The notes under the pieces: generated by a model
Told to the model about the DNA's origin: nothing
The model's database searches: none
The model's input: the letters and a program-made list of their open reading frames with translations, nothing else
Source: Raja brachyura
Lineage: Eukaryota
DNA: 64,000 nucleotides
Reading direction: 5' to 3'
Assembly (NCBI GenBank): GCA_963514005.1
Contig: OY740803.1
Location: forward strand, 29,698,001 to 29,762,000
Shown: piece after piece, positions 52,690 to 64,000 of the stretch
Layout: the number at the start of each line of letters is the position of its first letter
How positions within the stretch are numbered: the first letter of the stretch is position 1
Translations under genes and position numbers: made by a program

Positions 52690-52712
52690 TTTCCTTAACT
52701 CCCCTCTTTTAC
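52690..52712 (+). promoter_or_regulatory. U12-type (minor spliceosome) branch point and AC 3' splice site
   Basis: TTTCCTTAAC (52690-52699) matches the U12 branch consensus and lies ~13 nt before AC (52711-52712), directly ahead of the exon; there is no AG at the junction. AT-AC introns are known in voltage-gated Ca/Na channel genes. Confidence 0.93.
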
Positions 52713-52824
52713 ATGGTTTGAACGGATGAGTATGTTGGTCATCTTGCTGAACTGTGTCACCCTTGGAATGTTCCAGCCCTGCCAGGACAGCACCTGCGAG
52801 TTAGAACGTTGCAAAATTCTGAAG
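52713..52824 (+). CDS. Internal coding exon of a T-type (Cav3) voltage-gated calcium channel alpha-1 subunit, domain I S1 and S1-S2 loop (CACNA1G/H/I family; paralog unresolved)
   Basis: 112-bp exon; after 1 nt it reads [37 protein letters not shown], matching the Cav3 IS1 motif [23 protein letters not shown]. Preceded by U12 branch point TTCCTTAAC and an AC acceptor; followed by donor GTAAGC at 52825. Ends in phase 0, compatible with the next exon. Confidence 0.96.
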
Positions 52825-55800
52825 GTAAGCTCTTGTCTTTTTGTCTTCAATACCAATGCTCAATAGTGGAAGAGATGAGGCCGGTGGGTTACAATTACCT
52901 CGGGAGATTGAATTCAAATCCAGCCCACATTCATGGACTTAAACCTTCCCCAATATTGATACCCTGCTACGTGCAGATTAACAATTCCTTTATTTCTTCC
53001 TCCCACCCCAAAATAAAATGAGATTGGCTGCTCAGTTCAATTCAGCAGATCTAGTTTCTGACCTGAAGGAGTCAATGGATCAGAGTTTCAGTCAAGACAA
53101 TTGCAGCGCTGCTAACATCCTAAAAGCTTAAGACAACTGTACTTGTTTCACGTCAACAGCATGTGTTGGCTACACGTGAAAAGCAGTGTTCTATTTACAT
53201 CTTCAGTTCTGGGAGCAGAAAATAAGAATCAGATTGGCAGTAAAAGTGTATTTTGTTCATTTCCATACCTCTTCTGTTCCACTGAAGCAATCTAGCACTC
53301 TAATTATAAGTTTTGTCACCGTGCAACTGAACTTCCTTAATTCTGGAGGATGGTAGGCACTGTGGAGGTGCGTGGGCTGCTTTTAATAGTTATGCAGCCT
53401 GAAGAGCCAAACTGACATGGGCTGATTGTTCAATGTTGCCTGTTAACACTGATGAATTTATGAAATTTAAAAACAATACATTGTGGATACTGGCACACTG
53501 AAATTAAAACAAAACGTGCGAGAAACATCCCACATTTGTAGTGAGAGAAAAACAGTGACCATTTCAAATCGGTTAACTTTTGTCAGAATTGGAAGCTTTT
53601 AAGAGGCTTTTGAGAAAGTACTGAGCCAAGGCACAGGAAGTTAGGGAAAGAATAAACATGTGGTTGTTAAGGTGGGGAGCAGCTGTGATTAAATACAAAA
53701 AAAACAACCATGGCGCAAAACAAAACGATTAAAATTGTTTCTAATGAACTCCCATTGAAAACAAGTTGACCATCTCTGTCATTTTAATTAATCGCCATTA
53801 ATGCATGGGGAGCATTGGAGGGAGAACATGTGGTTGGGTTTGGATATTGAAGAAAACTTTTTATTTTAAAGCAATAAAATATGGGCATTGATGCTGCAAA
53901 CGTTCAGAGGGGTATGTTGCAGACCAAAAATAATTTTGACATCAATTGGAAGAGCTCTTTCGAAAGCCTTGTTAAATAGCCATGATGTGTTTGAAAGCAA
54001 TTATGTTTTCATTTTGTACACATTAACATTCAGATTGTCTGTTAGTGTTGTACATTAATAGAACAAGATCAGATCTTCAGTAGATATATCTCCTCATATA
54101 TATTAAAGCTAATGGATTACTAGGCAGTAACACAGAAATTTAATGGATAATATAATGGCACACCCAGTCAATATGCAGGATATTTCCGCCAATTTCCCAC
54201 TTGCTTTGTTACATACCTGAGAGTAAGAGCAAGTGTTCAATACGGAACATAGCCAATGAGGAAGATAAATTAGTAATTCAGAAAGAACAAAGAAGACAAC
54301 CAGGTTTACTTTCATTTAGTGCCAGATTCTGGGATAAAGGTAAACAAGTGGATCGTAAGTTTAAAATGTAGTTGATTTATAGGTTTCTGGAAGGGAATGG
54401 TTTAGGCTAAGGGACTTTCTGCTGAATTTTCATTTTGAAATAAAAAGGATGCTCATTAAGAAGAGGTGGCTATCAGTTGGGAAGAGAGTAAATTTCACCA
54501 GAACATTAATCATAGGAAGACATATGAAAAGAACATTACTGTCAACTCACAAATCTCTCATGTGTACAATAATGTGTTATCCCATGTGTACAATAATTGG
54601 TCCCTAGATTTACCTTCTTCCATAAACGACCCAGTGCAGCCCAGAATGGTTAAAAATGAACCATCTGGTGCAATCTTCCCAAGCTGGAGTCGCGATGGTT
54701 GGTGGCCACAGGCTGGATTAAGCCAAAACTGTGGCCTGCTCAGTAGAGGGCATGCGTCAGAGTCTAATATGTGGTTTGGGCTGCTGGAAACACAATATAG
54801 ATAAATGAATGTTTTGAGCGGGGAGGGGAATTGGAAGGATCTTGACAATGATTAATGGATGGCTTAGGTTGGAGAGGTGGAGATCTAAGGGAATCTGGCA
54901 CTGGTGGGCTGGACAGTAGTCGGTGATGAAGATTTACTAGGATCTCGGCACCAGAGGATGGATTGAGGAAGGTATGTAGATTGGAGTGAGGCTAGTATTT
55001 GTGGATTGATGGATGATTTTCAGGAAAGGGCTGATGTTCAGAGTGGAGGTGGCTGAATTAAAGCCTAGGATTGAGGGGCTAATGGTAATGTGACTGCGGA
55101 ATAGGATCTGGAGATTAGTGGATTGAGCTGGAATCAATGCAATGCTGAGAAGAATAATTTGAAAAATGCAAGGCAAGCAACTGTCCCAATCCTGTACCTC
55201 ATCCGGAAGACAAGGATGTTGCAGATTACCTAACGATAACACCTCCCAACTTAAAAATTTCTTGCATTACTCCAAAGTCTATTGTCTCGGGAATGTCATC
55301 ATCCATGCATCTCCAAAATAGAAATAGTATCAGGGAACAATCAACACATTTTCTGATGGTGTTTTTACATTTCATGTCGAGATAACTCTCTTTTCAATTG
55401 AATAATGGTGAAAAAAAAAGTTACACAATTGAATTTCTTGAGTGTACATCTTGTCAAAGGAATCATAAAATCATACAAAGGTTACAACACTTGATAGAGC
55501 AACATGGCTTTATTCCCCTTTATTCCACAACTGGACATTACAGCTCTTCAAGTACACATTTTGTACTGTGTAAAAAGGGTTACATTCAGGCTGTGTAACC
55601 CTCCAAGCCCCAATCTCCCCTGAGTAAAAACCTTTTCCTCAACTACCCTCTAATACTTTCATTAATTGTTTATGTCCCTGGCCAATGGTTCAGACCTCTG
55701 TAAGATAAATGACTTCTCCAAATTCAGGTTCCATCTGCCCCTCCGCTCTCCCTTTTCCTTTTTTTATTTATCAGCTTTCAGTTCTGGTAACTTTGTGTCC

Positions 55801-60967: not shown

Positions 60968-61101
60968 GGATTTGATGATTTCATCTTTGCATTCTTTGCT
61001 GTGGAGATGATTGCCAAGATGATTGCGCTGGGTATCTTTGGACCAAAATGTTACCTCGGTGACACTTGGAACCGTCTCGATTTTTTCATTGTTGTTGCTG
61101 G
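60968..61101 (+). CDS. Next coding exon of the same Cav3 channel, domain I S2-S3
   Basis: 134-bp exon after acceptor tctgtcttttAG; reads [44 protein letters not shown](G), with the diagnostic [15 protein letters not shown] motif; donor GTAAGT at 61102; in frame with 52713-52824. Confidence 0.97.
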
Positions 61102-62225: not shown

Positions 62226-62746
62226 CTACAATACCAAAATACATTCCAACCCAGGCATGAGGGTTGTAAATCTTCTCTGCATCATCTCCAGTGCAATCAC
62301 CTCCTTCCGATAGTGTGGTCGTCAAAACTCCAACTGTGAAAAGATAATTTTATATAAGAAGCAAGCAACTCCAAATGGTGCTTTATGCAAAAAGAGGCAT
62401 ATTGTGCTTGAGTAACTCAATTGGTTCCTTCAAAAGGTCTCTCTGAAGAAGGGTCCCGATGCAAAAGTTCACCTATACATGTTCTCCAGTGGTGTTGTCT
62501 GACTCGCTGAGTTACTCCAGCACTTTGCCTCCAGAACTTTGTGCAAGGAGTGAAGATTCTCCACAGCTACCTGCTCAATTCCAACTCTAACCTCCCATAA
62601 GCACCCCCTCCAGTCCTGCTTGACTGGCTCATTCTGCTGTATGTAATCAAAGTAGTGTGACTTGTTCCTGGAAGAGCCAAGTAGACATTTCTTCACTCAG
62701 AGGGTGATGAACCTGGAATTCTTGACATCAGTGGGTTACTGAGGCT

Positions 62747-62888
62747 TCTTCTTCTTCTTGCGTATGGCGTGCACAGCCTAAAGTTGCAGGATAACTTGTT
62801 CTATTTGATCTTACTTGATTGTGCACGCCAGGTTGATTGCATTCGTCGAAACAGGGCGGACCATGTGAAGGTTGCAATCTCCCACCCC
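62747..62888 (-). mobile_element. 142-bp non-autonomous retroelement (ribozyme-headed SINE/SIDE-like) with (AAG)n tail
   Basis: Flanked by 12-bp TSD gtt(a/g)ctgaggct (62735-62746 / 62889-62900); (AAG)n 3' tail; internal 11-bp stem TGGCGTGCACA/TGTGCACGCCA (62765-62775 / 62820-62830); inserted into a CR1 remnant. Confidence 0.8.
62835..62888 (-). ncRNA. Predicted minimal HDV-like self-cleaving ribozyme (54 nt)
   Basis: Minus strand GGGGTGG-GA-GATTGCA-ACC-TTCACAT-GGT-CCGCCCT-GT-TTCGA-C-GAA-TGCAATC. P1 GGGGUGG/CCGCCCU with G1-U wobble, P2 GAUUGCA/UGCAAUC, P3 ACC/GGU, 7-nt L3, J4/2 C-GAA (catalytic C equivalent at 62845), P4 almost absent. Fold assigned manually; activity untested. Confidence 0.78.
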
Positions 62889-64000
62889 GTTGCTGAGGCT
62901 CAAGCATTGCTAAATTCTGGGAACTAAACGAGGTCTCAACACCCCCCTCCCATTTCACCCAGCTGTTCTGTGGTCTTTGCAGCTTGCTATGCCTGCTTTG
63001 ATTTGTCACCTCCCAACTCCACACATCTCCTTGTGGGTTTCTCCAATCACCATGACCACTCGCCCTATTGTCATTCTAATCCTCTCTTGAAGAATATTCC
63101 GTGATCAAGCCTGTTTTTACTCCTTGATCTCATTCCATTCCACCTGCCAAAAATGCAGCTCTTGAATAATTTCCACCCTCCCACAAAACAAAATTAAAGA
63201 ATGTAGCCTGACATTACATTGTTAAAAGTCTTTATTGTTGTCGACATTTGTGATATCTTGGACACAGTATAAAGCACCTGGTTTTACGTCATTCACCTCC
63301 GTATATTTCTACTCACTCAGGGGCTGCCTTTGAGTTTGCAGATTAATTGCAGTTGAAATGCATGTCAGCAAAGATTTAATAGATTGCAGGAATAAGATAA
63401 AAAACATTTAAATGGTGTTAATCTTATGTTAAATGCACAACCCATTTTTAGTTGGCAATGCATTGGAGGCTGGAATTTTTTTCATATAGAAGGAATGCTT
63501 TTATGCGGTCTGTTTTAGTTTTCATACAGGTCCTACATCAATATCAGGTCTAAACAATGGAACTCCCTATTAAACTACACTGTGGGAGTGAAATCATCAG
63601 ATGAACTGCAGCAGTCCTCCTTGTACATGATGTCCTTATGCACTGAGGTTACCAGGCTTGTACCGGCGATTTCAATAGTGTTCAAGAGACCTTATGGAAT
63701 TTGTTTTGCATGCTTGAGGCTCACAACAATGCAAGCATCATATCAAAGCAAAAGCTTGAATTCAGAGTTGACACCAACTTTGTATTACTTAAAATAAAAC
63801 ATGCTTGCCTGGACTGACGTCAGAGTGCCTGTGGTATCAAGCTTCTCACAGGTAGATTCTATACAAGTTGCTTTCTTGGCGCTCACTCCAAACCACAATC
63901 TTTTCCTCAACCCCTCACAGCCAGTCTTCAGGGATGCTGTTCATAAATCTGACCACCATCCTGCCACAAAGGACCCAGCAACAATCCCTGTGGTACACCA

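What the first reader, a model, noticed from the sequence alone, without database searches (positions are those of the whole stretch)
62735..62900. 142-bp retroelement whose 5' end is exactly a minimal HDV-like ribozyme
Seen: on the minus strand the first 54 nt fit every element of the HDV double pseudoknot: 7-bp P1 with G1-U wobble, 7-bp P2, 3-bp P3, UUCACAU L3, and J4/2 CGAAUG as in genomic HDV, with P4 reduced to a few nt. G1 (62888) abuts a 12-bp TSD. After the ribozyme come an 11-bp stem and an (AAG)n tail; there are no Pol III A/B boxes. Known: HDV-like ribozymes define the 5' ends of R2, RTE and L1Tc/ingi retrotransposons and of R2-derived SIDEs. Inference: a promoter-less SINE family that is cut out of host read-through transcripts by self-cleavage and mobilised by a partner LINE via its 3' stem and tail. 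I do not know of such a family described in cartilaginous fish. This copy has A at the L3 position that is normally G (CAT rather than CGT, probably CpG decay), so it may be less active. It is antisense to the channel gene, so it would not cut that pre-mRNA.
Basis: partly seen in the sequence, partly recalled or inferred. Interest (0 to 1): 0.88.

Follow-up and report, generated by a model that had tools for sequence, protein, structure and literature searches.

The report
Self-cutting mini retrotransposon, ten thousand copies
A 142-base jumping element with over ten thousand copies in this genome is a cut-down version of a 3-kb retrotransposon and begins exactly at a compact RNA fold that likely cuts it free from host transcripts; sister retrotransposons here begin with close look-alikes of the mammalian CPEB3 ribozyme, a likely clue to where that ribozyme came from.

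Summary
Observation confirmed. The element (62747-62888, minus, 12-bp TSD) belongs to a family with 11,697 exact 3'-anchor matches; 59 of 84 sampled non-LINE copies start exactly at G1. I found the partner: a 3.1-kb single-ORF LINE (APE + RT + CCHC, no RNase H; Vingi-like). The element is its internal-deletion derivative: nt 1-81 from the 5' UTR, the last ~45 nt from the last codons, 3' UTR and (AAG)n tail. Two sister LINE families start with the same fold, with compensatory changes at 10 of 18 pairs. So this is a SIDE-type bipartite element, a known kind (R2 SIDE, NARTc/RIME). New are the Vingi-like parent, the nearly P4-less ribozyme and the scale: 1,320 perfect copies of one intact haplotype. 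This copy's G25A probably cripples it. Cleavage and lack of a promoter are untested. By-product: Rfam's mammalian CPEB3 ribozyme model hits 32 places above cut-off; 10 of 20 examined lie beside sister-LINE ORF. The scan earlier noted a different ribozyme-headed short retroelement in another genome (e1-7813318).

The parts
62747..62888 (-). 142-bp non-autonomous bipartite retroelement (internal-deletion derivative of a Vingi-like LINE)
62835..62888 (-). HDV-like ribozyme fold, nt 1-54; predicted cleavage just 5' of G1 (62888)
   Evidence: descriptor hit, 0 in 19.2 Mb background; family 5' end
62882..62888 (-). P1 5' strand (G1-G7); partner 62853-62859
   Evidence: each P1 pair kept in 60-68 of 72 copies
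62873..62879 (-). P2 5' strand; partner 62835-62841
   Evidence: each pair kept in 68-71 of 72 copies
62860..62872 (-). P3 (3 bp) with L3 62863-62869; G25A change of this copy at 62864
62846..62852 (-). G37/U38 (single-pair P1.1 with C22, as in CPEB3) and 5-nt P4 remnant
   Evidence: CPEB3 numbering in PMC4836649
62842..62845 (-). J4/2; predicted catalytic C44 at 62845; the next base is free (T 44, G 15, A 10 of 72)
62808..62888 (-). part derived from the LINE 5' UTR (nt 1-81), ending before the LINE's probable ATG (about nt 107)
   Evidence: alignment to LINE copies L177, L163, L178, L160
62795..62807 (-). 13-nt linker, apparently a short duplication of 5'-UTR sequence at the deletion junction
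   Evidence: inspection (inference)
62747..62794 (-). part derived from the LINE's last codons, stop (62778-62780), 3' UTR and (AAG)4 tail (62747-62759)
   Evidence: 41 of 42 identical to LINE copy L110 from nt 100
62820..62830 (-). 5' arm of the 11-bp stem (from the LINE 5' UTR); 3' arm 62765-62775 (from the LINE 3' UTR)
62889..62900 (-). 5' target-site duplication
62735..62746 (-). 3' target-site duplication (11/12 identical)
60968..61101 (+). host exon of a T-type calcium channel gene upstream of the intron that holds the element

Best explanation
This is a copy of a short, non-coding internal-deletion derivative of a 3.1-kb Vingi-like LINE, keeping only the LINE's first 81 bases, which fold into a predicted HDV-like self-cleaving ribozyme, and its last ~45 bases with the (AAG)n tail. 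Shown: the bipartite origin, copy number, 5' ends at G1, TSDs, and the fold's covariation across sister LINEs. Inferred: a copy caught in a host Pol II read-through transcript folds the double pseudoknot and cuts before G1, giving a defined, structured 5' end without needing its own start site; the LINE protein binds the shared 3' UTR/tail and inserts the RNA by target-primed reverse transcription, giving ~12-bp TSDs. Because the RNA is only ~140 nt, most copies are full length and can seed further rounds, which would explain why the derivative outnumbers its parent about 20 to 1. The window copy carries G25A and lies antisense in a calcium-channel intron, so it is likely a nearly inert passenger.
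For: Family size: 11,697 exact matches to a 20-nt 3' anchor; 2,234 to a 35-nt core pattern; 1,320 perfect copies of one intact 54-nt haplotype. 5' ends in a 3'-anchored sample: 59 of 84 at nt 1, 9 at nt 2-3, 7 at 5-10, 9 truncated further; TSD ends within 1 base of G1 in 45 of 63 copies with a TSD call, modal length 12; 341-356 contigs per DNA run run on into unrelated flanks at 62888 in two organisms. Parent LINE: 188 3' ends, 5' ends with the same ribozyme, one near-complete 3.1-kb copy L192, APE and RT domains, 120 listed homologues without RNase H, C-terminal CCHC in 67 of 69 full-length homologues. Ages match: LINE copies 85-92% alike, short copies 4.8-6.4% from their group majority. Selection on the fold: variants shared by at least 10% of copies fall at J1/2 (8), P4 loop (41), the base after the catalytic C (45) and a U-G to U-A change (32); 1 of 46 constrained versus 15 of 57 other positions (Fisher p 7e-4, or 0.011 without CpG-type sites; subfamilies are related, so indicative only). 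Sister families B and C start with complete folds, compensatory at 10 of 18 pairs including P1.1 (C-G to U-A), none broken (relaxed background 1 in 7.7 Mb); TSDs end at G1 in L344, L356, L359 (inspection). The base before G1 is G in only 9 of 59, so no sign of a cap-derived extra G (that expectation is recalled).
Against: No cleavage assay and no RNA data. A +1 internal promoter would also give sharp 5' ends and conserve nt 1-54; L1Tc's first 77 nt are both promoter and ribozyme (PMC4035085 passages). No two-sided compensatory change within the short family itself; covariation comes from sister LINEs picked out by a descriptor. P4 is only 5 nt. The nested minimum-energy fold of the full 142 nt keeps P2 but not P1 (the program cannot score pseudoknots). 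The clade name rests on architecture, length and recalled motifs, not on a tree with named Vingi, Ingi and RTE references. All LINE copies seen are broken (longest open frames 150-309 aa in 18 fetched). The sample comes from the first 25 Mb of one contig.
Confidence: 0.75

Rival explanations
1. Same bipartite element, but transcribed from an internal promoter in nt 1-81 (as Pr77 of L1Tc/NARTc), with the ribozyme only trimming or protecting the 5' end.
For: Precedent in the sister Ingi/L1Tc clade (PMC4035085; PMC3383444 listing). Kojima 2018 holds bipartite LINEs to be very likely Pol II transcripts with 5' regions responsible for transcription. All subfamilies keep nt 55-81 beyond the ribozyme.
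Against: Sister families keep the fold while changing most of the sequence, which points to RNA-level selection; no excess G before G1. Neither excludes a promoter.
Confidence: 0.17
2. The ribozyme is an inherited relic in the short family: G1 is the 5' end only because the founder RNA ended there, and copies were made from a few source loci whose own flanking start sites lie at G1.
For: Only two or three major subfamilies are seen; no two-sided compensation inside the family.
Against: Subfamily variants avoid all constrained positions while accumulating downstream; a relic gives no way to remove upstream host sequence, yet flanks at 62888 are unrelated (agreement 0.34-0.36).
Confidence: 0.06
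3. A Pol III SINE whose head folds like an HDV ribozyme by chance.
For: A TTCGA word resembling a B-box core sits at nt 39-43.
Against: No A or B box consensus; the head is the LINE's own 5' UTR; descriptor background 0 in 19.2 Mb.
Confidence: 0.02

Closest known systems
R2 SIDEs (Eickbush and Eickbush 2012, PMC3414825; abstract read)
   Same: 5' HDV-like ribozyme joined to the parent's 3' end by internal deletion; ribozyme defines the 5' end; mobilised in trans
   Different: R2 SIDEs are rare, rDNA-specific and use an RLE parent; this family is dispersed, about 10^4 copies, APE parent, 54-nt ribozyme against about 184 nt for R2 (PMC6765202)
NARTc, RIME and SIDERs of the L1Tc/Ingi clade (PMC4035085; passages read)
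   Same: short derivatives of an Ingi-related LINE with an HDV-like ribozyme at +1; several shown to cleave in vitro
   Different: trypanosomatids; 77-nt hallmark that is also a promoter; parent has RNase H (Ingi, per PMC13708176); here a vertebrate and a nearly P4-less fold
Vingi LINEs and their non-autonomous derivatives (Vingi-1_EE, Vingi-2_Gav; via PMC5786205 and PMC13708176 passages)
   Same: single ORF, APE + RT, no RNase H, about 3.1 kb (Vingi-2_Gav 3128 bp), many internal-deletion derivatives
   Different: [quoted passage not shown]
Mammalian CPEB3 ribozyme (Rfam RF00622; PMC4836649, PMC8233481 passages)
   Same: U20, U21, C22, A23, G25, U26, G37, U38 at the same positions; single-pair P1.1; sister LINE 5' ends score up to 65.8 bits on its model
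   Different: this family's P1, P2, P3 sequences differ and P4 is nearly gone; it does not score on the model; CPEB3 is single-copy and host-conserved
Minimal (P4-less) HDV-like and theta ribozymes (PMC10879173; passages read)
   Same: core double pseudoknot with P4 lost or nearly lost; such RNAs cleave in vitro
   Different: reported about 99% in phages, tRNA-linked; their eukaryote search covered human, mouse and protists only; ours keeps a 5-nt P4 remnant and heads a retroelement

Membership tests
HDV-like ribozyme | nested double pseudoknot P1 (7 bp, G1 wobble or pair), P2, P3 (3 bp), L3 (7 nt), P1.1 | tested here: met
   covariation in sister families
HDV-like ribozyme | catalytic C in J4/2 followed by N-R-A | tested here: met
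   C44 in 67 of 72, A47 in 71 of 72; C-N-R-A in families B, C
HDV-like ribozyme | U20-G25 reverse wobble in L3 | tested here: met
   met for the family (G25 in 64 of 72); not met in the window copy (A25)
HDV-like ribozyme | P4 helix | tested here: inconclusive
   only 5 nt (at most one pair closing a loop); P4-less variants are known active (PMC10879173)
HDV-like ribozyme | Mg2+-dependent self-cleavage 5' of G1, lost in C-to-U mutant | not testable with these tools
   needs an in vitro assay
SIDE / bipartite non-autonomous LINE | 5' end and 3' end of one autonomous LINE, ORF deleted | tested here: met
   nt 1-81 and nt 100-142 align to the LINE ends
SIDE / bipartite non-autonomous LINE | independent spread by TPRT (many copies, same junction, TSDs, tail) | tested here: met
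Vingi clade (parent LINE) | single ORF with APE and RT, no RNase H, about 3 kb | tested here: met
   definition from PMC13708176
Vingi clade (parent LINE) | RT phylogeny sister to Ingi, apart from RTE | tested here: inconclusive
   tree groups families A-D, F, H with the homologues against a CR1-like outgroup, but holds no named Vingi, Ingi or RTE reference; C-terminal CCHC and W-x-D-x-stop end fit Vingi as recalled
Pol III SINE (tRNA, 7SL, 5S head) | A and B boxes, small-RNA-derived head | tested here: not met
   no consensus box, no Rfam head; head is LINE 5' UTR
CPEB3 ribozyme family RF00622 | score above 35 bits on the model | tested here: not met
   window element and L177, L178, L201 do not score; sister families do

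The most novel reading that the evidence does not exclude
Vingi-like LINEs as a clade begin with CPEB3-type HDV-like ribozymes; one lineage shrank the ribozyme to 54 nt and spawned a family that has seeded a vertebrate genome with thousands of intact self-cleaving RNAs, and the mammalian CPEB3 ribozyme is the domesticated 5' end of such a LINE, whose non-mammalian relatives (the outgroup said to be missing in PMC8233481) lie in this genome.
Probability: 0.6. Interest if true: 0.82.

Novelty: new variant of a known kind. Interest (0 to 1): 0.64.

Why it matters
It extends ribozyme-defined 5' ends to Vingi-like LINEs and their short derivatives in a vertebrate, at a scale (at least 1,320 identical intact copies; about 2,600 by extrapolation) that makes a clean natural test possible: intact copies should be depleted on the sense strand of introns if they cut in vivo. 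The 54-nt fold is a natural near-minimal HDV-like ribozyme outside phages. Vingi elements are being engineered as gene writers (PMC13708176), and this family marks the cis-sequences that sufficed for efficient trans-mobilisation. The sister families give direct sequence relatives of the mammalian CPEB3 ribozyme at LINE 5' ends, which names a source for it and supplies outgroups.

Tried and rejected
Rfam at the site and on five loci: no ribozyme hit. A first search for the partner LINE by excluding SINE letters just upstream of the tail found only decayed, truncated or MITE-interrupted copies in 30 of 55 hits viewed; the LINE shares those bases. RNA evidence: no RNA holder listed. DNA contigs showed no empty site; pieces cross both junctions in organism B. 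The 5'-3' stem as a clade-wide signal: not seen by inspection in the 3' UTRs of families B and C, so it is left as possibly incidental (its core is a 6-nt palindrome). Large short-element families from B and C: not found (14 and 25 core matches). Intron strand bias: not testable without annotation. Ruminski 2011 (PMC3308841) and Kojima 2011 (PMC3002237) were not held, so either may already report Vingi ribozymes; Repbase, Dfam and patents could not be searched. Paper searches listed no paper on this family, on a Vingi ribozyme, or on a LINE source of CPEB3; I saw only the top 20-40 rows of the larger result sets. PMC7761336 states the general idea that conserved vertebrate ribozymes were domesticated from transposons. 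The Vingi-2_Gav comparison is by eye only; bioRxiv supplements were not opened.

Full report
1. Observation. On the minus strand from 62888 the first 54 nt give P1 (1-7/30-36), a 2-nt J1/2, P2 (10-16/48-54), P3 (17-19/27-29), L3 (20-26), G37-U38, a 5-nt P4 remnant and J4/2 with C44. My HDV descriptor found this one site in the window, none in 19.2 Mb of resampled sequence and none in 20,000 shuffles of the 54-mer. The TSD is 12 bp with one mismatch. There is no Pol III box consensus and no Rfam hit. The host is a T-type calcium channel gene on the plus strand, with the next exon about 26 kb past the window, so the copy is intronic and antisense.

2. The family. A DNA search gave 3,342 candidates; the 40 scored matched at 95-100%. 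Exact pattern counts: 2,234 for a 35-nt core that fits only some subfamilies, 11,697 for a 20-nt 3' anchor, 1,320 for one fully intact 54-nt haplotype; reversed-pattern controls were 0. For an unbiased view of 5' ends I took 89 of the first 100 anchor hits (first 25 Mb of contig C1; 11 hits in one tandem array left out). Four were LINE 3' ends and one a duplicate. Of the other 84, 59 begin at nt 1, 9 at nt 2-3, 7 at nt 5-10 and 9 are truncated further. A TSD was called in 63 of 84 and ends within one base of G1 in 45; the modal length is 12. In four DNA runs from two organisms, 341-356 contigs per run continue into unrelated sequence at 62888. In 72 copies reaching the head (4 LINE ends, 1 duplicate, 3 rearranged and 9 truncated copies dropped) each of the 18 core pairs holds in 60-71 copies, C44 in 67, G25 in 64; 20 are fully intact, about 2,600 genome-wide if the sample is typical (extrapolation).

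3. The parent. The 3' part of the element reads like a decayed ORF end. A pattern for a W-x4-D-x3-stop end (recalled for Vingi) plus the 3' UTR gave 188 hits, 5'-truncated copies of a LINE ending in a CCHC-like finger and the same UTR and tail. Walking upstream reached 5' ends carrying the same ribozyme, with U5-A32 instead of U5-G32 and U after the catalytic C; 19 of 30 loci kept part of the head and 4 started at nt 1. L192 is a near-complete 3.1-kb copy. Fragments match APE and RT, not RNase H; the 120 listed homologues are mostly about 1,000 aa with the same domains and no RNase H, 67 of 69 full-length ones with a C-terminal CCHC. This fits Vingi as described in PMC13708176 (passages) and the 3,128-bp Vingi-2_Gav (PMC5786205); a tree with named references was not possible. 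Element nt 1-81 align to the LINE 5' UTR and nt 100-142 to its 3' end (41 of 42 to L110). The probable ATG (about nt 107) is lost. The 11-bp stem pairs a 5'-UTR arm with a 3'-UTR arm and is 8 bp in most copies. LINE ends are 4 of 89 anchor hits, so the derivative outnumbers its parent about 20 to 1. Divergences match (LINE pairs 85-92%; short groups 4.8% and 6.4% from their majority).

4. Is the fold under selection? Variants shared by at least 10% of copies occur at four head positions: J1/2, the P4 loop, the base after C44, and a pair-keeping U-G to U-A change. That is 1 of 46 constrained positions against 15 of 57 elsewhere (indicative only, as subfamilies are related). No two-sided compensation occurs within the family. 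A search with a distant homologue exposed sister families. B and C begin with complete folds, the same 2-nt J1/2, long P4s, and compensatory changes at 10 of 18 pairs across A, B and C (3 in P1, 5 in P2, 1 in P3, and P1.1), with no broken pair in the four B and C copies that passed the descriptor (background 1 in 7.7 Mb). Their copies also start at or just inside G1. A further family (L369) shows a two-pair P1.1 by inspection. Structure is kept while sequence changes, which is RNA-level evidence.

5. Mechanism. Most likely (0.75): read-through transcript, self-cleavage before G1, recognition of the shared 3' UTR and (AAG)n tail by the LINE protein, TPRT with ~12-bp TSDs. Origin, ends, TSDs and covariation are shown; cleavage, source of transcription and trans-mobilisation are inferred from R2 SIDEs (PMC3414825, abstract), NARTc/SIDER (PMC4035085, passages) and the review PMC6765202 (passages). 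The main rival is an internal promoter with an accessory ribozyme (0.17). The window copy has G25A; the equivalent U23/A28 antigenomic HDV mutant has a 528-fold lower k2 (PMC3386971 Table 1), and the copy is antisense, so an effect on the channel gene is unlikely.

6. CPEB3 link. Kojima 2018's supplement prints the 5' end of Vingi-2_Gav without calling it a ribozyme; by eye it matches the Rfam CPEB3 consensus printed at 38 of 40 positions before the P4 loop and at all positions printed after it. Searching this genome with RF00622 gave 41 matches among 59 scored candidates, 32 above the cut-off, best 65.8 bits; 0 of 14 control genomes rang. Of the top 20 loci, 3 have the LINE's N-terminus in sense just downstream and 7 have LINE ORF directly upstream in inverted orientation, the 5'-inversion pattern also seen in 9 of 18 family-A copies; one more hit is about 1 kb away and unclear, and 9 have none (two of these, L376 and L377, share the downstream sequence of the sense group). 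Their 3' ends carry AAG-type tails. L378 is 54 of 67 identical to the Rfam consensus by my count. [quoted passage not shown] Homology is likely; direction (LINE to host intron) is inferred from the single mammalian copy against several mobile families.

7. Novelty. Ribozyme-headed internal-deletion retroelements are known, and Vingi is known to make bipartite derivatives (PMC5786205: first part, passages and supplement passages read). Kojima 2018 does not list Vingi among ribozyme-bearing clades, and my ten searches listed no paper on this family, a Vingi ribozyme or a named LINE source of CPEB3; Ruminski 2011 and Kojima 2011 were not held, and Repbase, Dfam and patents were out of reach. The scan's notes hold no look-alike sequence and one different ribozyme-headed element elsewhere. 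Verdict: a real feature, a new variant of a known kind, interest 0.64, lifted by the scale, the near-minimal fold and the CPEB3 lead.

Noticed in passing
L375-L394 (e.g. L375:1501-1575 minus, L378:1501-1578 plus, L379): At least three sister LINE families begin with ribozymes scoring above the Rfam cut-off for the mammalian CPEB3 ribozyme (up to 65.8 bits); 10 of 20 loci lie directly beside Vingi-like ORF.
   Followed up: partly
L295, L308 (family B); L296, L303 (family C); L312/L368 (D); L369: Further Vingi-like families with their own HDV-like 5' folds; 14 and 25 core matches for B and C, no large short derivative found.
   Followed up: partly
L203, L077, L062; L064, L073; L195; L344: Other, apparently independent internal-deletion derivatives with different junctions (one family C derivative), so the deletion happened several times.
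   Followed up: no
L038, L068, L075, L076, L080, L089, L182, L327: A MITE-like DNA element with 13-bp terminal inverted repeats has inserted repeatedly at the same T/A-rich 4-mer near the element's stop codon.
   Followed up: no
L185-L188, L191, L193, L194, L197, L198: 9 of 18 LINE copies fetched by their 5' end have the 3' part inverted (twin-priming-like 5' inversions).
   Followed up: no
L289: A full short element with TSD sits inside the endonuclease region of its own parent LINE.
   Followed up: no
L182:2352-2933: A ferritin-like coding stretch (Pfam 1e-35) interrupts a LINE copy; possibly a processed pseudogene.
   Followed up: no
G000:C1:14.56-14.95 Mb: A tandem segmental array carries one copy of the element per unit (about 14 anchor hits).
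   Followed up: no
window 52699-52863 and 60968-61101 (+); L372:5870, L373:3520: Successive exons of a T-type voltage-gated calcium channel gene.
   Followed up: yes
window 62747-62888: Contigs of organism B cross both junctions of this insertion, so it appears shared with that organism, where the family is equally abundant.
   Followed up: partly
sample: The base before G1 is T or C in 44 of 59 full-length copies and A in only 6; target-site preference or cleavage-site preference, unexplained.
   Followed up: no
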